Shown here: positions 12,396 to 51,882 of the stretch, one piece after another | Position numbering within the stretch: the stretch's first letter is position 1 | Layout of the letters: each line of letters opens with the position of its first letter | NCBI GenBank assembly: GCA_018657525.1 | Contig: JABHWZ010000003.1 | Coordinates: 14,840 to 78,839 of the forward strand | DNA from: an archaeon | GTDB lineage: Archaea > Nanobdellota > Nanobdellia > Pacearchaeales > GW2011-AR1 | Length of the DNA: 64,000 bases | Direction of reading: 5' to 3' | Translations under genes and position numbers: made by a program | The notes under the pieces: generated by a model | What the model was told of the DNA's origin: nothing | The model's input: the letters and a program-made list of their open reading frames with translations, nothing else | Database searches by the model: none

Positions 12396-12620
12396 GAAAG
12401 ATTATAAATATGGCCTCGATAACCTAAAGGTCACGAGAACCTGTAGGCAGGAGGGATTTAGTCGCTTCGCTCTCAACTTCGCTGAACATCAATTTCGCTA
12501 AAATTGACATAAACCATCGACAACTTCTGTGGAAGTAAAATATTTTTGAATTTCCAAACATTAAAATTTCTTTCAGAAATTGTTATAATCTTTTTGAGAA
12601 AGATTATAAATATGGCCTCG
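12396..12620. repeat. 23-nt perfect direct repeat (tRNA-Lys acceptor 3' strand plus 15 nt of 3' flank) bracketing a 179-nt GC-richer insert
   Basis: gaaagattataaatatggcctcg at 12396-12418 and 12598-12620. The insert starts with module GATAACCTAAAGGTCACGAGAACCTGTAGGCAGGAG. Confidence 0.9.
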
Positions 12621-12687
12621 AAGGGATTTGAACCCTCGACACCCAGATTAAGAGTCTGGTGCTCTGACCAGGCTGAGCTACGAAGCC
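12613..12687 (-). tRNA. tRNA-Lys (anticodon CUU)
   Basis: Hand-folded cloverleaf: GGCTTCG/CGAGGCC acceptor, GCTC/GAGC D stem, CCAGA-CTCTTAA-TCTGG anticodon arm, GAGGG-TTCAAAT-CCCTT T arm. 75 nt. Confidence 0.85.
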
Positions 12688-14129: not shown

Positions 14130-14430
14130 AGTTTCGATGTGTGTGGCTGCACTTTGTGCATTTGAAGAATTTTGTTTCTGCTTCGTCTGATGCTCGTGTT
14201 TGGACTGTCCAGAAGTATGCTTCTTCGTTTCCACATTTTGTGCATTTATCCTGAACAATTGGTTCTGTTTGAATATTTTGTTTAAGGACAGTTATTTTTT
14301 TTATTTCTGGACCTTTTTCAGAAGTTTTTAATTTTGTGACTTTTCCTTTTGAAATGTAACTGCATCTTGGGCAACCTAATTTTTTAGTTTTTTTTATTAG
14401 TACTGCTCCGCATTTTGGGCAAAATTCCAT
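14122..14430 (-). CDS. tfs: transcription factor S / RNA polymerase subunit M (TFIIS-type)
   Basis: N-terminal CPKCG..CPRC ribbon and C-terminal CTKCG...QTRASDE..F.CTKC ribbon carrying the acidic loop. Confidence 0.85.
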   Translation of the reverse strand: MEFCPKCGAVLIKKTKKLGCPRCSYISKGKVTKLKTSEKGPEIKKITVLKQNIQTEPIVQDKCTKCGNEEAYFWTVQTRASDEAETKFFKCTKCSHTHRNYD

Positions 14431-14620
14431 TATATGAATCTCCCTACTAATTTTGCATCAACAATGCTTTGCTGTGTTAGACAAAACTCCATTAGAAGAT
14501 ACTCCTTACTAATTTTGCATCAACAATGCTTTGCTGTGTTAGACAAAACTCCATTAGAAGATACTCCTTACTAATTCTGCATCAACGATATTTGAAGTTA
14601 TTAGATAAAATTCCATTATA
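14421..14620 (-). repeat. about 3.2 tandem units of 62 bp, each restarting with the tfs start (ATGGARTTTTGY)
   Basis: aaaa[tc]tccat at 14421, 14483, 14545 and 14607. The units encode 20-codon uORFs linked by UAAUG overlaps. Confidence 0.9.
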
Positions 14621-26067: not shown

Positions 26068-26583
26068 TTATTGTTTAACTGCTTTTTCTTTGACTCTTCT
26101 GTTTTTTGGAATGAAATTTGAAATCTTTTTTTCTGAAACTTTTCCACAGCCCCAAAAATCTTCTTTGAACTTTATTACTTTGAATCCTCTAGTGAATTTT
26201 TCTGGTTCATTTGCAATTTCGTTTTCGGATTTGGAGGATAGATAATTTATTTCATCAAAATATAATTCTTCTCCTTTGAGATATTTTTTTGCTTGTTCTT
26301 CAGTGAGTTCTAAAATGTTTTCTGTTATTTGGTCTTTTAGTATGTGTGTGCCCTCGATACTCAATCTAATTTCGTTTTCTCCAGGGATTAATTTAGCAAA
26401 GTAAGTCCCAACTCTTTCTATTGGTATTGTCTTTTCAAGTTCCCATATCTCAGGAGCGGTTAATGAACCTTGATATAAAAATAATCTTTCTTCTCCTCGC
26501 TGAACAATTAATCCTTGAACTTCTTGAATTCCAAATTGTTTTTTTAGAAGTTGAACTATCTTTTCTTTTTCTTTTCTAGTCAT
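26068..26583 (-). CDS. Nip7-like (pre-PUA/PUA) RNA-binding protein
   Basis: The N-terminal half resembles Nip7 (..RLFLY.., VGTYFAKL). It lies next to the NSUN methylase. The 36 extra N-terminal codons of the track ORF are encoded by a repeat element. Confidence 0.45.
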   Translation of the reverse strand: MTRKEKEKIVQLLKKQFGIQEVQGLIVQRGEERLFLYQGSLTAPEIWELEKTIPIERVGTYFAKLIPGENEIRLSIEGTHILKDQITENILELTEEQAKKYLKGEELYFDEINYLSSKSENEIANEPEKFTRGFKVIKFKEDFWGCGKVSEKKISNFIPKNRRVKEKAVKQ

Positions 26584-26629
26584 TATTTTTAATCCTTTAT
26601 ATTCTCTGGAAAATTTGTGTTGTTTCATT

Positions 26630-26734
26630 GCGAGACAACCCCTTGTTTTCCTCGCGCTCCTTCCTCGAAGCTCTGATACTCCGAAGGGCACGAGAGGGTA
26701 GCATCTTTAAATTGCCTCCGTCGGATGCCACATG
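26630..26734 (-). repeat. 105-nt structured element, copy 1 (immediately 5' of an ATG on the minus strand)
   Basis: Near-full-length match to 42612..42716 in the opposite orientation. Contains the GGAGGCAA-loop hairpin and the GGGCACGAGAG module. Confidence 0.9.
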
Positions 26735-26760: not shown

Positions 26761-26966
26761 TTTGATATTTTCATTCTTTTATTTTCCTAAATTTACTTAT
26801 GAAGAACCCCTCTGCTCGTGAACCTTCATTGTTATTGAATCTTCTGCTTGTCATTTTATTTTTTTGAATTTTGAAATGAAGAACCCCTCTGCTCGTGAAC
26901 CTTCATTGTTATTGAATCTTCTGCTTGTCATTTTATTTTTTTGAATTTTGAAATGAAGAACCCCTC
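26761..26966 (-). repeat. triplicated NSUN gene 3' end (77-bp units) plus a codon-diverged displaced end
   Basis: Units start at 26799, 26876 and 26953. See findings. Confidence 0.9.
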
Positions 26967-28031
26967 GGTATTATTATCATGAGGATAAACTCTGCAACAT
27001 AATTTTACTTTTGGGTTGAAATTTATTTTTGGATTTTTTTCAGACTTTGCTGTTCCCTCCCGCGAACCACCCTGGGACTCGCTTAGCTCGCTTGATTTAA
27101 TTAACGCAAAGTCTTCTTTTTTTGGATTCCATTCTGTGATTCCTTCTCGACATTTTATTGGGAGTTCTACTTTTTTGATTTTAATTTTATCTCCAAATTC
27201 TTCTAGGGCCCAACTTACTATTGCTTCGTTTTCTTCTGGGGCGTGAGTGCAAGTTGAGTAAATTATTTCTCCGTCAACTTTTAAAATTTCAAAAGCGTGT
27301 TTGAATAATCTTTTTTGAATTTGTGGGAGTGCTTTTGTTACATTTTTTATGTTCCACATTTTGTAGGTTTTATAAGCGCTTCTTAAAGTTCCTTCGCCAG
27401 AACACGGGGCGTCCACAAGGATTTTGTCAAATTTTATTTCTGGGTTGAATTTTGCTAATCTTTTACAAAGTGCGGCTCCTTCTTTTCTGCTGATTATTGT
27501 ATTTGTGACTCCGCATCTTTCTAGGTTTGAAGAAAGAATTCTGAGTCGGCCCATTGAAATTTCATTGGCGATTATTGCTCCTTGGTTTTCCATTGCTGCT
27601 GCTATCTGAGTTGTTTTGGATCCGGGTGCTGCGGCTAGATCTAGGATTAATTCTCCTGCTTTTGGTTTGAGTGCAATTATCGGAAGCATTGAGGCAAGTT
27701 CTTGAATATAATAATATCCGAGTAAATGTTCTTCTGCCCTTCCGAGTTCTCCTGGTTCAAGTGAGATTAAATTATTTTCAGAATTATATTTTCCTTCGAT
27801 AATCATGACTTCCGGGTTTGATTCCCACGGGCGAGATATTTTCCATGTTTTTTCTTCTAATCTTTTTTTTAATTTTTCAGGAGATATTTTTAAGGGGTTG
27901 CAACGGATAGAATTTACTGGTTTTATTTTTAGGATATCCAAATAGGATTGAAAATCTTTTTTATCTGGAAGAAGCTGTTTTATTCGTTCTTCGAATTCAG
28001 GTTTCATTTCTGGAATTTTTATTTTTGTCAT
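26928..28031 (-). CDS. NOL1/NOP2/Sun-family RNA cytosine-C5 methyltransferase
   Basis: DLAAAPGSKT SAM motif; DAPCSGEG and YSTCT catalytic Cys motifs; C-terminal EGFFI. Confidence 0.85.
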   Translation of the reverse strand: MTKIKIPEMKPEFEERIKQLLPDKKDFQSYLDILKIKPVNSIRCNPLKISPEKLKKRLEEKTWKISRPWESNPEVMIIEGKYNSENNLISLEPGELGRAEEHLLGYYYIQELASMLPIIALKPKAGELILDLAAAPGSKTTQIAAAMENQGAIIANEISMGRLRILSSNLERCGVTNTIISRKEGAALCKRLAKFNPEIKFDKILVDAPCSGEGTLRSAYKTYKMWNIKNVTKALPQIQKRLFKHAFEILKVDGEIIYSTCTHAPEENEAIVSWALEEFGDKIKIKKVELPIKCREGITEWNPKKEDFALIKSSELSESQGGSREGTAKSEKNPKINFNPKVKLCCRVYPHDNNTEGFFISKFKKIK

Positions 28032-41636: not shown

Positions 41637-42055
41637 AAGATTTTGATGACTTTCTAAAAAGAGGGGTGGTTAAAAAACAATCTGTTAATGAGCCAAGAGC
41701 TAAAGATTTGGTTTCTGAAGCTGAAAGAAAATTAAGTTCAATGAATCGTGTTATTAAGAAAATAGGAATTGATGACGCAAATGCTAATGATATTATTGAA
41801 AATTGTTGCGATATTATTCTTAGTTTAATACGTTCGAAAATGTTTTTGAAGGGGTTTAGCGCTTCTGGAAGTGGAGCTCATGAAGCAGAAGTTTCTTTTT
41901 TAAAAAAATTGGAATTTAATGAACAACAAATCGAATTTATTAATTCTTTGAGATATTTTAGGAATGGAATTTTGTATTATGGAAAACGATTTGATAAAGA
42001 ATATGCAAAAAAAGTAGTCAAATTTTTAAAACAGGTAAAGGTTAAATTAAAATGA
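41633..42055 (+). CDS. HEPN-like domain protein (partner of the MNT)
   Basis: 140-aa all-helical protein with a 4-nt overlap with the MNT gene. The R-x4-H position reads FRNGILYY (His replaced by Tyr). Confidence 0.5.
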   Translation: MKDFDDFLKRGVVKKQSVNEPRAKDLVSEAERKLSSMNRVIKKIGIDDANANDIIENCCDIILSLIRSKMFLKGFSASGSGAHEAEVSFLKKLEFNEQQIEFINSLRYFRNGILYYGKRFDKEYAKKVVKFLKQVKVKLK

Positions 42056-42987
42056 GATCTTATAGTGTTTTGGGGAATATAGCGTTGGTTAATTTTCCGA
42101 GGGAATTTAAAGGAAGCAAAATTAATTTTGCTAAGAAAATTTTGAAAGAGAACAAATCAGTTAAGACTGTTTTGGAAAAAGTGGGAAAATTTTCTGGGAG
42201 GTTGAGGAAGATTTCAACTAAATGGTTAGCGGGGGAAAAAAATAAAGAAGTTTTGTATAAAGAAAATAATTGTGTTTTTAGATTTAATATTGATTCAACT
42301 TATTTTTCTCCGAGGCTGAGTAATGAGCGGAAAGAGATTGCAGGATTGGTTAAGAAAGATGAAAATGTTTTAGTTATGTTTGCAGGGGTGTCACCGTTTT
42401 CAATTGTTATTGCGAAGAATTCAAAAATTGGGCGTAGTTCTGCGTACCCTAAATTGCGGAATGCTAAGGTATATTCAAATGAGATAAATCGCGAAGCAAA
42501 TAAATACGCGAAGTTAAATATTGAATTAAATAAATTGAAAGAGAGGGTTGAATTGTTGCCTGGTGATATCAAAAAAGTTACTGAGAAAATTTTGAAGGGG
42601 TGGAGGGAAAACCATGCGGTATCTGTAGGAGGCAAAGAAAAGATGCCGCCCTCTCGTGCCCTTGAGGGTATCAGTGTTTCGAGGAAGGAGCGCGAGGAAA
42701 ACAAGGGGTTGCCTCGCTTTGATGTGATTGTAATGCCGCGACCGCAGTTGAAAGATAGTTTTTTGGAGCAGGCGTTTAAGTTGTCAAAACGCGGAACGCG
42801 AATTTATTATTATGATTTTTGTAAAATTGATGCTCTTGAAGGAACAAAGTATTTTGATTTGATTATTAAGAAGATTAAAGATGAGGCAAAAAAAGCTGGG
42901 AAGAAAATTAGAATTGTGAATAAGAAATTGGCGGGAGATATTGCTCCGTATAAGTATCGTGTGCGGGTTGATTTTATAATTTTGTAA
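42052..42987 (+). CDS. Trm5/Taw22-like tRNA (m1G37) methyltransferase carrying two in-frame repeat insertions
   Basis: YFSPRLSNER, VLVMFAGVSPFSI, YSNEIN, and FDVIVMPRP (NPPY-equivalent). Confidence 0.7.
   Translation: MRSYSVLGNIALVNFPREFKGSKINFAKKILKENKSVKTVLEKVGKFSGRLRKISTKWLAGEKNKEVLYKENNCVFRFNIDSTYFSPRLSNERKEIAGLVKKDENVLVMFAGVSPFSIVIAKNSKIGRSSAYPKLRNAKVYSNEINREANKYAKLNIELNKLKERVELLPGDIKKVTEKILKGWRENHAVSVGGKEKMPPSRALEGISVSRKEREENKGLPRFDVIVMPRPQLKDSFLEQAFKLSKRGTRIYYYDFCKIDALEGTKYFDLIIKKIKDEAKKAGKKIRIVNKKLAGDIAPYKYRVRVDFIIL
42612..42716 (+). repeat. 105-nt structured element, copy 2, in frame inside the Trm5-like CDS
   Basis: Encodes ..HAVSVGGKEKMPPSRALEGISVSRKEREENKGLPR.. between conserved Trm5 motifs. 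Confidence 0.9.
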
Positions 42988-49099: not shown

Positions 49100-49171
49100 T
49101 TTATTTTAAGTCCTCCATTTTAATAATGTTGATAATGGATTTGAATTTATAAATAATTGTGTGATTCAAAG

Positions 49172-49561
49172 TTATTTTCTACAAAGAGAGTGATCGCTTC
49201 TCGCAATTTTAGCAAAGTGTGCTTTTTCTTTGGAAGTTAGGGCTGTTCCAAAGTAAGTTCCCTTTCCATATTCTGTTTCTATTTTTTCTATTCTTGAAAT
49301 GAATTTTTTTATTTGGGGAATTTTGTAAGGTTTTTGAGGAGAGTACGTGGTGCTAGTAAAGAGGATTTTTGTGGAAGTTGTTTGAAGTTGATTTAAAGTG
49401 TTTAAGTGTCTTGTAATATCTTCTTGTGTTTGGGAATTTCTTTGATATTTTTTTCTTCCTTTTGAATCATAGACACTTGTAAATACTATGGGATATCTTT
49501 CTGATATTTCTTGAAGTTTGTTTTCAAGATTTTTTATTGTTTGTAGTTTGAAAAATAGCAT
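49172..49561 (-). CDS. hypothetical protein, paralog of 50317..50733
   Basis: Shares QTIxNLExKLQEISERYP and a ..YSP.K......I..F..R.E.IE...GKG.Y.. pattern with the other copy. Confidence 0.45.
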   Translation of the reverse strand: MLFFKLQTIKNLENKLQEISERYPIVFTSVYDSKGRKKYQRNSQTQEDITRHLNTLNQLQTTSTKILFTSTTYSPQKPYKIPQIKKFISRIEKIETEYGKGTYFGTALTSKEKAHFAKIARSDHSLCRK

Positions 49562-49562
49562 T

Positions 49563-49943
49563 TTAGTTGCCTCTGGCATGATTTAAATAAGGTAAATATT
49601 CTCTTTCTAATCTTTTTAATTCTTTGTGGGATAATCTTCTCGGATTTTCGCAGAACTCTTCAGCCTCGGGTAGCTGTGCTAGGAGTAGTTCAGCTTTTTC
49701 TTTTTCTACTCGTGCTCTTATTTGTTCTCCAGTTAATTTGAGGCTGGTTCTCCAAGAGTATATATCAAAAACTATCAAATGTGGATGCTCTTCTTTTAGT
49801 TCTCTTATATCTTTTAGATATTGTACATAAGATTCTGGTGATTGATCTATTTCAGGGGGTGATTGTTTACTTGCGGATTTGACTGCTTCTACAAGTGCAG
49901 TATATCTTGCTGGGTAATCTTTTCCTATTATTAAAATTTTCAT
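49563..49943 (-). CDS. hypothetical protein
   Basis: 126-aa ORF with an ATGA overlap with the upstream gene. Confidence 0.4.
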   Translation of the reverse strand: MKILIIGKDYPARYTALVEAVKSASKQSPPEIDQSPESYVQYLKDIRELKEEHPHLIVFDIYSWRTSLKLTGEQIRARVEKEKAELLLAQLPEAEEFCENPRRLSHKELKRLEREYLPYLNHARGN

Positions 49944-50308
49944 TTTATTTTTTTTAATATTAATGCAGATCCTTTTGGATCCCTTGGATTTTCTAATCCT
50001 CTTCTTTCTATTTCTTCTCTATGTTCTTTTAAGATTGGATTGAATTCTATTTGATAGTTTGTTGGAAGTACCCAAAGACATTCTCTGTTTTTGCGCCCTC
50101 TTTTTTCTCCTTTACTTAAAACTTGATAGACTCTTCCTTCGGGAATATCCGTCGCATAATCTCCTCTTTCTAAGGGAGATTTTAGATAACTGCCTTGGAT
50201 AAATCTTTTAGATAATGATAATGAATGTTCTTGAGTTTTAAAATTAATACCATGAATTTGATATTTTAATTTTGTCGTTTTTATTCTTTTGGGTAGATTT
50301 ATTTTCAT
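49940..50308 (-). CDS. hypothetical basic protein
   Basis: 122-aa ORF. Confidence 0.4.
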   Translation of the reverse strand: MKINLPKRIKTTKLKYQIHGINFKTQEHSLSLSKRFIQGSYLKSPLERGDYATDIPEGRVYQVLSKGEKRGRKNRECLWVLPTNYQIEFNPILKEHREEIERRGLENPRDPKGSALILKKIK

Positions 50309-50316
50309 TTTATTTT

Positions 50317-50733
50317 TTAATGGCCATATTTTTTATGAAATGCTTCTGTTTCTTCTCTTTCCTCTTCAGGTGTCATGGCTGATATAGAATATGCTCCTTT
50401 TCCTGAAATAGATTCTATTTCTTCAACTCTTCTTACAAATCCTTCTATTCTCATTAATGTTCCTCGTTTCATGGGAGAATATCTTAGTTTGGTTAATGGA
50501 ATTCTTTTTGATTTATCTTTTAATGTCCTTAAAGTTGAAATGTGTTCTTGGATTTCTTGTTGGGTTAGATAATTAAAATGTCCTTTAAAACATTTGTTTT
50601 CTTCTTCATTGGATTTACTCGCTCCTATCTCTTGTGCCAGTTCTATTAAATTTCTTGCTCCCGCTGGATATCTTTCAGATATTTCTTGAAGTTTGCTTTC
50701 AAGATTTTCTATTGTTTGTGGTTTTAAAAACAT
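50317..50733 (-). CDS. hypothetical protein, paralog of 49172..49561
   Basis: See the paralog entry. Confidence 0.45.
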   Translation of the reverse strand: MFLKPQTIENLESKLQEISERYPAGARNLIELAQEIGASKSNEEENKCFKGHFNYLTQQEIQEHISTLRTLKDKSKRIPLTKLRYSPMKRGTLMRIEGFVRRVEEIESISGKGAYSISAMTPEEEREETEAFHKKYGH

Positions 50734-50751
50734 TTTAGTTTGTCATAATTA

Positions 50752-50834
50752 TAATTCAATCAGCCCACCCTTATTGTGGAATTCCGCGAACCCAAATTGC
50801 AAAACATAAAAGATGTTTTGTTATGATTAAATTA
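50752..50834 (+). mobile_element. MITE-like element A, copy 3 (diverged)
   Basis: TAATTCAATCAGCCCA...CCGCGAACCCAAATTGCAAAA-hairpin-TTATGATTAAATTA. Confidence 0.6.
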
Positions 50835-50885
50835 TAATTATTTTTATTAATGAATGTATTTTTATTCCTTTCCTAATCCTGCTAA

Positions 50886-50919
50886 GATACCCTAAAGGGC
50901 ACGAGAATCCTTGCAGTTA
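50886..50919. repeat. about 34-nt insert (GATACCCTAAAGGGCACGAGAATCCTTGCAGTTA) between two copies of the rfcS 3' end
   Basis: See findings. Confidence 0.85.
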
Positions 50920-51882
50920 TCATTCTTTTCCAAGTCCTGCAAGGACAAAACTTGCTAATAGAGCTTGGAGTTGAATAAATGGGTCAGAACCCTCGACGAT
51001 TCTAAATTCAGCCTCTCCTGTTTTTTCAGTTAGTTTAACTTTTATTTCTGGTTCAACTGGGAGGTTCCAAATTTCTTTTTGAATTCCCTTGATTACATCT
51101 TGACCTGAGATTGATTCTTTTAACATTACGTCTAAAAGTTTTTCTCTTGCCTTTAAGAAATCTCCTGATAAAGCGTAATCTAAAACTACTTTGATATCTT
51201 TTGGTTTTGCATTAGAGATAATTGTTTCAACTAGTTGAGAAGTTATGTTTGGGGATATTGAAGCAGTTGATTGAATAATGTTTGTTGCCCGACGGCAGTC
51301 GCCTTCTGAACCTTCATAGATAATTTCATATGCGTCTGGATTAATTGTTAATCTTTCGTTTTCAGCTATATGTTTTAAATATTCTTCAATGTCTTTTTTT
51401 TCTAGTAATTTGAATCTGAAAAGAGCGCATCGTGACTGTATTGGATCGATTATTTTGCTTGAGTAATTACATGATAATATAAATCTACAGGTCGCTGAGT
51501 AATTTTCCATTGTTCTTCTCAGGGCTTGTTGAGCTTCGGGGGTTAATGCGTCTGCCTCGTCGAGAAATATGACTTTGAATGGGACACCGCCAATGGATTT
51601 TGTTCGCGCGAAATTTTTAACTTTTTCTCTAACTATTTGGATTCCTCGTTCATCAGAAGCGTTTAGTTCTAAGTAATTGTCTTTCCAGTCTTTGCCGAAA
51701 AGTTGCTTTACGATAATTAATGCTAGTGTTGATTTGCCTGTTCCTGCTGGGCCTGCAAAGAGTAGATGTGGGATATTTAGCGAATTAGTCAGGGCTTCTA
51801 ATCTTTTGATTATGTCTGTTTGACCAACGACTTCGGAGAATTTTGAGGGTCTATATTTTTCAGTCCAGATTTCAGATGTCAT
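50920..51882 (-). CDS. rfcS: replication factor C small subunit
   Basis: WTEKYRP, FAGPAGTGKST, FLDEADALT, SCNYSSKII and SRCA motifs. Confidence 0.95.
   Translation of the reverse strand: MTSEIWTEKYRPSKFSEVVGQTDIIKRLEALTNSLNIPHLLFAGPAGTGKSTLALIIVKQLFGKDWKDNYLELNASDERGIQIVREKVKNFARTKSIGGVPFKVIFLDEADALTPEAQQALRRTMENYSATCRFILSCNYSSKIIDPIQSRCALFRFKLLEKKDIEEYLKHIAENERLTINPDAYEIIYEGSEGDCRRATNIIQSTASISPNITSQLVETIISNAKPKDIKVVLDYALSGDFLKAREKLLDVMLKESISGQDVIKGIQKEIWNLPVEPEIKVKLTEKTGEAEFRIVEGSDPFIQLQALLASFVLAGLGKE

What the first reader, a model, noticed from the sequence alone, without database searches (positions are those of the whole stretch)
50862..50946. rfcS stop region duplicated 58 nt downstream with synonymous recoding
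The functional end is GTC CTT GCA GGA CTT GGA AAA GAA TGA (VLAGLGKE*, 50946..50920 on the minus strand). After the roughly 34-nt insert described above (GATACCCTAAAGGGCACGAGAATCCTTGCAGTTA on the plus strand, whose first three nt are also the Ile codon of the second copy), the sequence reads ATC TTA GCA GGA TTA GGA AAG GAA TAA (ILAGLGKE*, 50888..50862). There are about 8 nucleotide differences in 27 nt. All are synonymous except V/I, and the stop codon changes TGA to TAA. The insert also forms a 9-bp inverted repeat (TCCTTGCAG / CTGCAAGGA) with the functional gene end, spanning the stop codon.
Basis: partly seen in the sequence, partly recalled or inferred. Interest (0 to 1): 0.8.

Follow-up and report, generated by a model that had tools for sequence, protein, structure and literature searches.

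The report
Hairpin cassette duplicating rfcS gene end
The last eight codons of the clamp-loader gene rfcS are present twice because a small two-hairpin sequence sits between them, and the same arrangement recurs, sometimes in tandem, in many related tiny archaea, where a short reading frame usually carries ribosomes across it to the next gene.

Summary
rfcS (51882..50920, minus strand) ends VLAGLGKE*. After a 31-nt spacer, a second copy in another frame reads ILAGLGKE* (7 of 27 nt differ, 6 of them silent).

It is not a one-off. The same layout sits at the rfcS 3' end in 5-6 of 81 related DPANN species genomes and in 26 metagenome contigs. In 8 loci it forms tandem arrays of 56-72-nt units.

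Each unit holds:
- the last 8-9 codons plus a stop;
- a 9-nt segment complementary to the V-L-A-G codons (hairpin 1);
- the linker (A)UUCUC;
- a GC-rich hairpin 2.

Both helices covary (92% paired; 0 of 500 shuffles reach this). The hairpin-2 core is a dispersed repeat: 4 copies in this window against 0.01 expected. Elsewhere it lies beside duplicated tRNA 3' ends. The nearest relatives lack the insert.

In 28 of 35 units, an ATG at the rfcS stop opens a 19-24-codon sORF. It runs in frame into copy 2 and stops beside the next gene's ATG.

In this window the unit is 58 nt, the sORF stops inside copy 2, and the next gene is 128 nt away. Copy 2 is therefore most likely the displaced resident gene end.

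How the insert got there is unresolved. No BHB intron and no Rfam family fit.

The parts
50920..51882 (-). rfcS, replication factor C small subunit, 320 aa, with its working stop TGA at 50922..50920
   Evidence: ORF. Identical to P0001, named replication factor C small subunit by its sources. Pfam AAA, DNA_pol3_delta2 and Rep_fac_C.
50920..50946 (-). Copy 1 (X): GTC CTT GCA GGA CTT GGA AAA GAA TGA = VLAGLGKE*, the functional gene end
   Evidence: Contiguous with the ORF. The same peptide ends the gene in the 80 relatives.
50917..50919 (-). Second in-frame stop, TAA, directly after the TGA
   Evidence: A second in-frame stop lies within 3 codons in 30 of 35 family units.
50882..50923 (-). sORF whose ATG (50923..50921) overlaps the rfcS TGA (A-ATG-A). 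It reads MITARILVPFRVS* and stops at a TAG (50884..50882) inside copy 2. In this window it is out of frame with copy 2.
   Evidence: In 28 of 35 family units the equivalent sORF ends exactly at the stop of the next copy.
50907..50946 (-). Hairpin 1. The 5' strand is GUCCUUGCAG (50946..50937, the V-L-A-G codons). The 3' strand is CUGCAAGGAU (50916..50907, segment 'c' plus the first U of the linker). The 20-nt loop holds the codons LGKE, the TGA/ATG overlap and the TAA.
   Evidence: MFE fold. Pairing seen in 35 units. Covariation: UA 14 / CG 13 at one pair and GC/UA/CG/AU at another; helix 89.7% paired.
50903..50907 (-). Conserved linker UUCUC between the two hairpins
   Evidence: Near-invariant (A)TTCT in alignments A1 and A3.
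50887..50902 (-). Hairpin 2: GUGCCC-UUUA-GGGUAU. Its last two bases are the first two of copy 2.
   Evidence: RNAalifold consensus with compensatory changes. 96.5% paired, 5 of 6 pairs with changes on both sides.
50862..50888 (-). Copy 2 (X'): ATC TTA GCA GGA TTA GGA AAG GAA TAA = ILAGLGKE*, the displaced gene end. It lies in the +1 frame relative to rfcS.
   Evidence: It uses the genome's preferred Leu codon (TTA 46%) and stop (TAA 34 of 48).
50734..50861 (-). 128-nt AT-rich spacer between copy 2 and the next ORF (50733..50317). In most relatives the next gene starts 1-7 nt after copy 2.
56047..56087 (+). Sibling two-hairpin module, CCTGTCCTCAGG-TTCTC-GTGCCC..GGGTAT-CGAAC. It lies between the 3' end of an intron-containing tRNA-Glu(CUC) (56296..56107, minus) and a 15-nt duplicate of that tRNA end (56046..56032).
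12419..12451 (-). Sibling module, CCTGCCTACAGG-TTCTC-GTGACC-TTTA-GGTTAT. It lies inside the second copy of a 32-nt direct repeat of the tRNA-Lys 3' end plus its flank (12629..12598 and 12459..12396).
42652..42672 (+). Hairpin-2 core TCTCGTGCCCTTGAGGGTATC inside a 105-nt GC-rich element (42613-42717) that lies in frame within a TRM5/TYW2-like ORF
26675..26695 (-). Hairpin-2-like core TCTCGTGCCCTTCGGAGTATC inside the second copy of the 105-nt GC-rich element (26734..26630)

Best explanation
The feature is one unit of a small cassette. A roughly 30-nt two-hairpin module lies eight codons before the original end of rfcS, together with a second copy of those codons and a stop.

Reading 5' to 3' on the minus strand:
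1. The working gene end (copy 1, TGA then TAA).
2. A 9-nt segment that pairs back onto the V-L-A-G codons (hairpin 1).
3. The linker UUCUC.
4. A GC-rich hairpin 2.
5. The displaced resident gene end (copy 2).

Shown here:
- The unit recurs at this exact place in many DPANN genomes and forms tandem arrays.
- Both helices are kept by compensatory changes on the sense strand.
- The hairpin-2 module is a dispersed repeat that elsewhere lies next to duplicated tRNA 3' ends.
- The insert is present or absent among very close relatives.

Inferred:
- The module arrives by an event that duplicates, or brings along, the 3' end of its target. Units are then gained, lost, amplified and exchanged by recombination between the gene-end copies.
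- The two copies differ almost only silently because each descends from a working gene end.
- The duplicated stretch often includes the next gene's start codon. The ATG overlapping the rfcS stop therefore opens an sORF that is kept in frame with copy 2. Ribosomes that finish rfcS can then be handed on by termination-reinitiation to the stop of copy 2 and from there to the next gene.
- In this window the hand-on is broken: the unit is 58 nt, the sORF ends inside copy 2, and the next gene is 128 nt away. Copy 2 here is an untranslated relic.
For: Recurrence: the same layout is in L019, L045, L051 and L055 (L043 is cut off) among 80 species genomes, and in 26 metagenome contigs found with a pattern that did not specify the spacer. 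Arrays occur in L090, L092, L093, L098, L099, L102, L104 and L106.

Structure: hairpin 1 shows 8-10 of 10 pairs in most of the 35 units. Segment c fits its own upstream copy better than the next copy. Over 16 pairs, 92.2% of cells are paired against 84.8% in shuffles, 8 pairs change on both sides, 0 of 500 shuffles reach any of the five measures, and slid controls give 31-47%. Frequent G.U pairs place the structure on the sense strand.

Dispersed module: TCTCGTGCCCTTnnGnGTATC matches 4 times in the window against 0.01 expected. Copies lie beside duplicated tRNA ends in the window, L023 and L035.

Turnover: the nearest RfcS relative of every insert-bearing genome (90.6-97.8% aa identity) lacks the insert. 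In L045, copy 1 is identical to the relative's gene end. In L055 and L019, copy 2 is the resident-like one. Identity of the spacers does not track identity of the adjoining rfcS (r = 0.10).

sORF: the ATG overlaps the TGA in 30 of 35 units. The sORF ends at the next copy's stop in 28 of 35. Unit lengths of 56, 59, 62 and 71 nt are all 2 mod 3, and the rare ATG frames co-vary with unit length (61 nt with ATG +1; 72 nt with ATG 0). The spacer is read in two different frames in different classes, so its nucleotides are not conserved for a peptide.

Coupling: the last copy's stop lies 1-13 nt from the next ATG in most loci. In-frame units go with an adjacent next gene (19/1 against 2/3, Fisher p = 0.016). 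In published tests, an intergenic distance of about 20 nt almost abolished termination-reinitiation coupling (PMC10666635).

Second example in the window: a 77-nt exact tandem repeat at the end of an RsmB-like gene has the same ATGA overlap and an in-frame sORF.

Codon usage: copy 2 uses the native TTA and TAA.
Against: - No enzyme that could insert the module was found in the window, and no mechanism was shown.
- The duplications are 15-18 nt at tRNAs but 24 nt or more at rfcS, and they are diverged. A simple target-site duplication is therefore not demonstrated.
- Between the window and L101, differences cluster at unconstrained sites (the hairpin-2 loop and third codon positions in the hairpin-1 loop). 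The rest is identical. That pattern also fits old vertical descent under strong constraint.
- Segment c covaries with the host's coding sequence. This argues for a function in place, not only for a passenger.
- Copy 2 stays LAGLGK in nearly all loci. The metagenome sample was selected for that pattern. The unbiased cases are the 5 species genomes (window included) and 6 third copies in arrays.
- No expression data exist, so translation of the sORF and the hand-on are inferred.
- Clustered at 80% spacer identity there are only 10 independent groups, 7 of them in frame (p = 0.02).
- The window's own unit is out of frame.
Confidence: 0.55

Rival explanations
1. This is an old, vertically inherited cis-regulatory RNA of the rfcS operon. 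The two hairpins around the stop/start overlap, together with the bridging sORF, would be a host device. It could set how much of the downstream product is made relative to RfcS, or stabilise the rfcS part of the transcript. The patchy distribution would reflect easy loss by recombination between the two gene-end copies.
For: - Both helices covary, including pairs made with the host's own codons.
- Window versus L101: 29 nt are identical from GAATGA to GTGCCC, while the loop of hairpin 2 and the third codon positions in the loop of hairpin 1 differ.
- The frame of the sORF is conserved.
- L098 and L104 share a homologous downstream gene, and their last copies differ by 5 nt, all silent.
Against: - The hairpin-2 module also occurs at unrelated loci and in either orientation relative to the neighbouring gene.
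- The downstream gene differs from locus to locus.
- Relatives with 95-98% identical RfcS lack the insert.
- Arrays hold units of different classes in swapped order (L098 versus L104).
- A regulator has no need for a duplicated gene end.
Confidence: 0.22
2. Copy 2 is the real C-terminus. The roughly 58-nt unit would be removed from the mRNA as an archaeal bulge-helix-bulge intron, or skipped by the ribosome as in T4 gene 60 and the mitochondrial byp elements.
For: - Copy 2 keeps the coding sequence and a stop.
- DPANN splicing endonucleases accept relaxed substrates (PMC5829648, listed; abstract only).
- A hairpin holds the last codons with the stop in its loop, and GGA occurs in both copies.
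Against: - A relaxed scan of the 35 units found no bulge-helix-bulge at conserved positions that would remove one unit. Hairpins 1 and 2 are uninterrupted helices.
- Copy 1 already gives the full protein and is followed by one to three stops.
- Unit lengths are held at 2 mod 3. That matters for an sORF and is irrelevant to splicing or hopping.
- The offset between the copies differs between loci (56, 58, 59, 62 nt), and synonymous codons differ between take-off and landing positions.
Confidence: 0.06
3. A one-off local duplication, a chance similarity, or an assembly artefact with no wider meaning.
For: - Short tandem duplications at gene boundaries are common in this genome: 77 nt at 26799-26966 and 62 nt at 14420-14586.
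- The single-sequence fold is not unusually stable (z = -1.27).
Against: - More than 30 independent loci carry the same architecture.
- Covariation supports both helices.
- Separate assemblies carry the identical insert.
- The background rate among other ORF ends is near zero.
Confidence: 0.02

Closest known systems
Integrative elements and casposons that insert into the 3' end of a tRNA gene or a conserved protein gene and keep the gene intact by duplicating its end (my own knowledge, not checked here: archaeal tyrosine-integrase elements; casposons with 14-15-bp duplications at tRNA or aEF-2 gene ends)
   Same: A direct repeat of the target's 3' end flanks the insert, and the gene-proximal copy stays functional. 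Targets are tRNA genes and one highly conserved protein gene. Tandem insertions occur at one site. The duplications at the tRNAs are 15-18 nt.
   Different: The insert is only about 30-60 nt and encodes nothing. No integrase or Cas1 gene is nearby. The rfcS repeats are 24 nt or longer and diverged. No terminal inverted repeats were identified.
REP/REPIN and MITE-like palindromic repeats (my own knowledge)
   Same: Short, GC-rich, hairpin-forming and dispersed (4 copies in 64 kb). They sit just after stop codons or gene ends, are sometimes clustered, and are non-coding.
   Different: Long duplications of the gene end accompany the insert. One stem of hairpin 1 is made of host coding sequence. 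The family is strongly tied to one gene, rfcS, across many genomes.
Overlapping ATGA gene pairs coupled by termination-reinitiation (PMC6728339, PMC10666635)
   Same: The ATG overlaps the TGA by 4 nt at rfcS/sORF. The stop of the sORF lies 1-7 nt from the next ATG in most loci.
   Different: The middle ORF is a 19-24-codon bridge made of a hairpin module plus a spare gene end, and it can be repeated in tandem. Coupling was not measured here.
Archaeal bulge-helix-bulge introns in mRNA (the cbf5 case, PMC2738675)
   Same: A short insert in an archaeal protein gene, with a segment complementary to the exon.
   Different: No BHB motif. The gene is complete without removal. The insert lies after the stop codon.
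Programmed translational bypassing (T4 gene 60; mitochondrial byp elements; my own knowledge)
   Same: A gap of about 50-60 nt, a hairpin containing the last codons, a stop right after them, and repeated codons on both sides.
   Different: Bypassing is not needed to make the protein. The frame relation fits an sORF. Codons at equivalent positions are often not identical.
CRISPR arrays and ectopic spacer integration (my own knowledge)
   Same: Periodic units of a 24-30-nt repeat plus a 30-35-nt insert, about 60 nt in all, growing in tandem. The repeat begins with a small palindrome (GTCCT TGC AGGAC).
   Different: The 'spacers' are all homologous to each other. The 'repeats' differ at silent sites. 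The Rfam CRISPR-DR35 hit is weak (17.5 bits, E = 0.49).

Membership tests
Archaeal BHB intron | Two 3-nt bulges separated by a 4-bp helix at the two exon-intron junctions | tested here: not met
   A relaxed scan (2-bp flanking helices, G.U allowed) of the 35 units gave only scattered motifs. None lay at conserved positions that would remove one unit. Hairpins 1 and 2 are continuous helices.
Archaeal BHB intron | Removal is needed to restore the reading frame or the product | tested here: not met
   Copy 1 ends the ORF with the same peptide as the insert-free homologues, followed by a stop.
Archaeal BHB intron | Spliced or circular RNA is observed | not testable with these tools
   No transcriptome data are available.
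Translational bypass element (gene 60 / byp) | A coding gap interrupts an ORF that is completed only by hopping | tested here: not met
   The ORF is complete at copy 1. A second in-frame stop lies within three codons in 30 of 35 units.
Translational bypass element (gene 60 / byp) | Matched take-off and landing codons | tested here: inconclusive
   GCA GGA is shared by both copies in the window. In many loci the equivalent codons differ.
Termination-reinitiation coupled overlapping ORFs | Stop and start overlap (ATGA) or lie a few nt apart | tested here: met
   A-ATG-A at 50923..50920. The overlap is present in 30 of 35 units. The last stop lies 1-13 nt from the next ATG in most loci.
Termination-reinitiation coupled overlapping ORFs | A continuous chain of ORFs reaches the downstream gene (for this window) | tested here: not met
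   The window's sORF stops at a TAG inside copy 2, and the next ORF is 128 nt further on. The chain is intact in 28 of 35 family units.
Termination-reinitiation coupled overlapping ORFs | Measured dependence of downstream translation on upstream termination | not testable with these tools
   Needs reporter assays or ribosome profiling.
MITE / REP-like dispersed repeat | Several near-identical copies at unrelated loci in one genome | tested here: met
   4 matches to the 21-nt core in 64 kb against 0.01 expected. Further copies occur in L023 and L035.
MITE / REP-like dispersed repeat | Short target-site duplication of fixed length and terminal inverted repeats | tested here: inconclusive
   Flanking direct repeats are 15-18 nt at tRNAs and at least 24 nt at rfcS, and they are not identical. 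The outer stems vary with the locus.
MITE / REP-like dispersed repeat | A cognate transposase (for example RAYT/TnpA) in the genome | not testable with these tools
   None among the window ORFs scanned. The rest of the genome was not available.
Integrase- or casposase-type insertion at a gene 3' end | A direct repeat of the target gene's 3' end flanks the insert, and the gene is kept intact | tested here: met
   rfcS, tRNA-Glu and tRNA-Lys in the window, tRNA-Gln in L023 and tRNA-Glu in L035.
Integrase- or casposase-type insertion at a gene 3' end | The element carries or neighbours an integrase or Cas1 gene | tested here: not met
   The insert is 31 nt. Neighbouring ORFs have no such domains.
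CRISPR array | Identical repeats separated by unique spacers | tested here: not met
   The spacers are homologous to one another, and the repeats differ at silent sites.
Diversity-generating retroelement (VR/TR pair) | Differences between the two repeats are confined to adenines of the template | tested here: not met
   The differences are G/A, C/T, T/A, C/T, T/A, A/G and G/A.
Intrinsic terminator | A GC-rich hairpin followed by a run of T | tested here: not met
   0 terminator-like sites in 50650-51050.
Any Rfam family | Match to a curated covariance model | tested here: not met
   The whole window at gathering score gives only two tRNAs. The region at E up to 10 gives only noise.

The most novel reading that the evidence does not exclude
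The unit is a self-contained 'gene-end cassette'. It would be a mobile unit of about 60 nt carrying a spare copy of its target's last codons, the stop and the next gene's start codon. Any number of tandem units could then be crossed by ribosomes through termination-reinitiation without harming either gene. The two hairpins would be the recognition structure for an unknown target-duplicating integrase. That enzyme might be Cas1/casposase-like, given the 15-18-nt duplications at tRNA 3' ends and the CRISPR-like repeat-plus-insert periodicity at rfcS.
Probability: 0.15. Interest if true: 0.85.

Novelty: new variant of a known kind. Interest (0 to 1): 0.66.

Why it matters
If the reading holds, these very small archaeal genomes carry a tiny insertion module that avoids harm in two ways. 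It restores the end of the essential gene it lands in, and it keeps the chain of coupled translation to the next gene intact through a bridging mini-ORF.

That would give three things:
- a natural test bed for how strictly termination-reinitiation depends on distance and frame in archaea;
- a marker of recent recombination at a conserved gene;
- a lead to an unknown insertion mechanism that also acts at tRNA 3' ends.

For annotation, it explains spurious 'extra' gene ends and short ORFs downstream of rfcS, and it flags a dispersed hairpin family absent from Rfam.

Tried and rejected
- **Rfam.** The whole window at gathering score and three regions at E up to 10 gave nothing relevant.
- **BHB scan.** No conserved motif.
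- **Single-sequence folding of the region.** Hairpin 1 is in the MFE fold, but z is only -1.27. The case for structure rests on covariation.
- **RNAalifold on the raw MAFFT alignment.** It found hairpin 2 but missed hairpin 1 because the spacer aligns poorly. I counted hairpin 1 on fixed-register pieces instead, with the register fitted by +/-1 nt, which leans slightly towards the structure.
- **Pseudoknot between the linker UUCU and the GGAA of the Gly-Lys codons.** The partner is not conserved, so I dropped it.
- **-1 frameshift at A-AAA-UGA.** Units ending UCA-UGA or CAA-UGA keep the ATG but offer no slippery site, so an overlapping start fits better.
- **A conserved peptide encoded by the spacer.** The spacer is read in two different frames (..KILVP.. 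versus ..KDSCT..) in different classes, so no.
- **Viral origin.** A scan of viral contigs for the hairpin-2 core gave 10 hits, all in an unrelated phage gene of about 50% GC.
- **A third gene-end copy just upstream of rfcL (49125..49103, GGAGGACTTAAAATAA).** This would make the four-ORF island an insertion at the same site. The stretch resembles the end of another gene that often precedes rfcL about as well, so it is ambiguous and I did not use it.
- **Covariance model of hairpin 2.** Not built, because MAFFT placed the loop gaps inconsistently.
- **First search for the whole 28-nt spacer in the window.** It found only itself, because the 5' part is locus-specific. The dispersed family appeared only with the hairpin-2 core.
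- **First regex for the module.** It was too strict and missed the tRNA-linked copies.
Full report
**Observation.** On the minus strand, a 320-aa ORF (51882..50920) encodes the small subunit of replication factor C.
- It ends GTC CTT GCA GGA CTT GGA AAA GAA TGA (VLAGLGKE*, 50946..50920).
- After the 31-nt spacer TAACTGCAAGGATTCTCGTGCCCTTTAGGGT, the sequence reads ATC TTA GCA GGA TTA GGA AAG GAA TAA (ILAGLGKE*, 50888..50862).
- Seven of the 27 nt differ: one is V->I, one is TGA->TAA, and the rest are silent.
- The offset of 58 nt puts copy 2 in the +1 frame.
- A blind scan of 1,620 ORF ends in the window and in related loci found such a downstream echo only at rfcS and at one other gene of this window.
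- Two independent assemblies of the same organism carry the identical insert.

**The window.** It is from a DPANN archaeon of the Woese-/Pacearchaeota kind with 32% G+C.

**It is a family, not an accident.**
- Eighty related species genomes were fetched through the RfcS protein. Four show the same layout after the stop codon (L019, L045, L051, L055), and a fifth contig ends inside it (L043). In the other 75 the next gene starts a few nt after the stop.
- A metagenome scan asked only for the FVLAGLGK codons, a gap of 25-55 nt and a second LAGLGK. It returned 26 contigs, and every one has the same kind of spacer.
- Eight loci carry two or more units in tandem. Some units are identical (L093, L099, L102, L106). 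Others belong to different classes (L092, L098, L104).
- After removing duplicates, 35 distinct units remain.

**Anatomy of a unit.**
1. The last 8-9 codons of rfcS and a stop, which is TGA in 30 of 35 units. A second in-frame stop follows within three codons in 30 of 35.
2. A 9-nt segment c complementary to the V-L-A-G codons of the copy just upstream. It forms hairpin 1, whose 20-25-nt loop holds the remaining codons and the stop.
3. The linker (A)UUCU(C).
4. Hairpin 2, consensus GYRCCC-loop-GGGYRY, whose 3' strand runs into the first codon of the next copy.

Hairpin 1 shows four different Watson-Crick pairs at the position of the third base of the Leu codon. In arrays with unlike units, each c matches its own upstream copy. 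I counted pairs on 33 units, using fixed-register pieces (register fitted by +/-1 nt):
- 92.2% of cells form standard pairs, against 84.8% in shuffles.
- 8 of 16 pairs show changes on both sides.
- None of 500 shuffles reaches any of the five measures.
- Sliding the partners by 1-3 columns drops pairing to 31-47%.

RNAalifold found hairpin 2 independently, with UA 15 / CG 11 at one pair. G.U pairs are frequent in both helices, and they would be A.C mismatches on the other strand. The structure therefore belongs to the sense strand, as RNA or single-stranded DNA.

**What it is not.**
- No Rfam family matches.
- No terminator-like site is present.
- A deliberately relaxed search found no bulge-helix-bulge at conserved positions that would excise one unit.
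- The differences between the copies are not adenine-specific, as they would be in a DGR.
- The 'spacers' of the arrays are homologous to each other, unlike CRISPR spacers.

**The hairpin-2 module is dispersed.** The 21-nt core TCTCGTGCCCTTnnGnGTATC occurs four times in the window, against 0.01 expected.
- One copy is on the plus strand at 56047-56087. It lies between the 3' end of a tRNA-Glu(CUC) with a 117-nt intron (56296..56107, missed by ARAGORN and Rfam) and a 15-nt duplicate of that tRNA end.
- Another (12451..12419) lies inside the second copy of a 32-nt direct repeat made of the tRNA-Lys 3' end and its flank.
- In L023 and L035 the module again sits next to a tRNA gene, flanked by 15- and 18-nt repeats of the tRNA's 3' end.
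- At the tRNA-Glu, tRNA-Lys and L035 sites the module is a small hairpin (CCUG-N4-CAGG or similar), UUCUC, hairpin 2. At rfcS, the place of the first hairpin is taken by the pairing of c with the gene's own codons.
- Two further copies of the core sit inside a 105-nt GC-rich three-hairpin element.
- A scan of viral contigs for the core found only an unrelated phage gene.
- No integrase, transposase or Cas1 domain was found in the neighbouring ORFs.

**Turnover.**
- For every insert-bearing species genome, the nearest RfcS relative lacks the insert: L019/L011 97.8% aa identity, L051/L037 95.9%, L045/L068 94.7%, L055/L035 93.4%, window/L001 90.6%.
- In L045, copy 1 is identical to the relative's gene end. 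The spacer, copy 2 and the downstream gene are different there.
- In L055 and L019, copy 2 resembles the relatives' end, including the KG* or GAGTAAAATG tail.
- Spacer identity between loci reaches 0.97 but does not track identity of the adjoining 300 nt of rfcS (r = 0.10; third positions about 0.54, near saturation).
- L098 and L104 carry the same two unit classes in opposite order.

Together these results point to gain, loss, amplification and exchange by recombination among the gene-end copies. They also explain the 'synonymous recoding': each copy descends from a working gene end. In this window, copy 2 uses the genome's preferred Leu codon and stop (TTA 46%, TAA 34 of 48). Copy 1 uses CTT (17%) and TGA.

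One caveat matters. Between the window and its closest spacer relative, L101, the differences lie only at unconstrained sites. That also fits long vertical descent under constraint. I therefore keep a host-function reading as the main rival.

**The bridging sORF.**
- In 30 of 35 units the codon before the TGA ends in A, so an ATG overlaps the stop (A-ATG-A).
- In 28 of 35 units, the sORF that opens at or near the stop runs through the spacer, enters the next copy in its own reading frame, and ends at that copy's stop.
- Unit lengths of 56, 59, 62 and 71 nt are all 2 mod 3. This matches the +2 frame of the ATG.
- The two units with an ATG in another frame have matching lengths: 61 nt with +1, and 72 nt with 0.
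- Length changes in the post-stop stretch, in the loop of hairpin 2 and in the number of codons compensate for each other.
- The conserved spacer nucleotides are read in two different frames in different classes. Their conservation is therefore structural, not peptide-coding.
- In several loci the duplicated stretch runs past the stop into the next gene's start: GATTAAAATGA in both copies of L091, and TAAAATGA in L092. The unit's ATG is therefore the duplicated start codon of the downstream gene.
- The last copy's stop lies 1-13 nt from the next gene's ATG in most loci.
- Loci whose sORF is out of frame are enriched for a distant next gene (19/1 against 2/3; Fisher p = 0.016; p = 0.056 if two ambiguous loci are counted against the idea).
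- Published work shows that coupling by termination-reinitiation needs overlaps or very short gaps. About 20 nt nearly abolishes it, and the last 15 nt of the upstream gene suffice (PMC10666635).

An insert of 35-45 nt would therefore uncouple the next gene unless a bridging ORF carried ribosomes across it. This is my inference. No expression data were available.

**This window's copy.** The unit is 58 nt. Hairpin 2 has a 4-nt loop where L101 has 5. The sORF MITARILVPFRVS* (50923..50882) therefore stops at a TAG inside copy 2. The next ORF starts 128 nt further on, after an AT-rich stretch. With nothing adjacent to couple to, the broken frame is what the relay idea predicts. Copy 2 is then best read as an untranslated relic of the resident gene end.

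**A second case in the same window.** An RsmB/NOP-like methyltransferase gene (28031..26928, minus) ends ..EGFFISKFKKIK* with AAAATGA. It is followed by an exact 77-nt tandem repeat (26799-26966). The sORF MTSRRFNNNEGSRAEGFFISKFKKIK* from the overlapping ATG is in frame with the next copy (77 = 2 mod 3). A third, diverged copy FFISKFRKIKE* is again overlapped by an ATG. This shows that the frame rule is not peculiar to rfcS.

**Comparison with known systems and verdict.** The feature works like three known things combined:
- an insertion that keeps its target gene whole by duplicating the gene's 3' end, as integrative elements and casposons do at tRNA and protein genes;
- a dispersed palindromic repeat, like REP or MITE elements;
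- an ATGA-coupled gene pair.

It fails the tests for a BHB intron, a bypass element, a CRISPR array, a DGR and a terminator. I could not show membership in any transposon or integrase family, because no enzyme or defined termini were found. I rate it a new variant of known kinds. I am moderately confident in the cassette-plus-relay reading (0.55). The mechanism of insertion and the role of the hairpins remain open.

Noticed in passing
window 26799-26966, with the gene at 28031..26928 (minus): An exact 77-nt tandem repeat (2.2 copies) lies at the 3' end of an RsmB/NOP-like methyltransferase gene. Each copy ends ..FFISKFKKIK* with AAAATGA. The overlapping ATG opens an sORF in frame with the next copy. 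A third, diverged copy (FFISKFRKIKE*) is overlapped by the ATG of a 49-aa ORF that in turn ends in an ATGA overlap with the next gene (PUA-domain protein, 26634..26068).
   Followed up: partly
window 26630-26734 (minus) and 42613-42717 (plus); related pieces at 60565-60597 (minus), L006 1601-1664 and L030 5209-5282: A 105-nt GC-rich element with three hairpins; the first has a covarying stem and the loop GGAGGCAAU. One copy lies in frame inside a TRM5/TYW2-like ORF (42052-42987) and splits its Pfam domain. Relatives without hairpin 2 end exactly at the start codons of rfcL, rfcS and other genes in many loci. No Rfam match.
   Followed up: partly
window 56107-56296 (minus): A tRNA-Glu(CUC) gene with an intron of about 117 nt at the canonical position. 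ARAGORN and Rfam tRNA both missed it.
   Followed up: partly
window 12396-12629 (minus): A 32-nt direct repeat (tRNA-Lys 3' end plus 15 nt of flank) brackets about 140 nt of AT-rich sequence. The second copy is split by a two-hairpin module.
   Followed up: partly
window 14420-14586: A 62-nt tandem repeat (2.7 copies, 93% matches) duplicates the 5' end and upstream region of a zinc-ribbon gene on the minus strand (MEFCPKCGAVL..). Each extra copy carries a mini-ORF MEFCLTQQSIVDAKLVRSIF* (21 codons). Short tandem duplications at gene boundaries seem common in this genome.
   Followed up: partly
window 49172-50733 (minus): Four small ORFs (138, 122, 126 and 135 aa) with no Pfam match lie between rfcS and rfcL. 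The first and last are paralogues (38% identity, E = 5e-24). In many relatives rfcS and rfcL are adjacent. An 18-nt inverted repeat (50745-50762 / 50824-50841) lies in the AT-rich spacer after copy 2.
   Followed up: partly
window 49103-49125 (minus): A mini-ORF MEDLK* directly upstream of rfcL (GGAGGACTTAAAATAAAATG). It resembles the rfcS end (AGGACTT..TAAAATG) and could be a third, decayed copy. It resembles the end of another gene that often precedes rfcL about equally well.
   Followed up: partly
L090 7220-7450: A variant array. The second copy is extended upstream (LASFVLAGLGKK*). The units are 72 nt. The last copy has a changed tail (VLAGLGERLHGGEN*).
   Followed up: no
L101 234-330: The stop of copy 2 is lost (TAA->CAA). 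The sORF then runs on to a TGA that overlaps the next gene's first codons.
   Followed up: no
proteins P0122-P0240 and P0002: Homologues of the RsmB-like protein range from about 320 to 430 aa, which suggests frequent in-frame insertions in this family in DPANN. One RfcS entry (P0002, 375 aa) contains an internal direct duplication of 55 residues.
   Followed up: no
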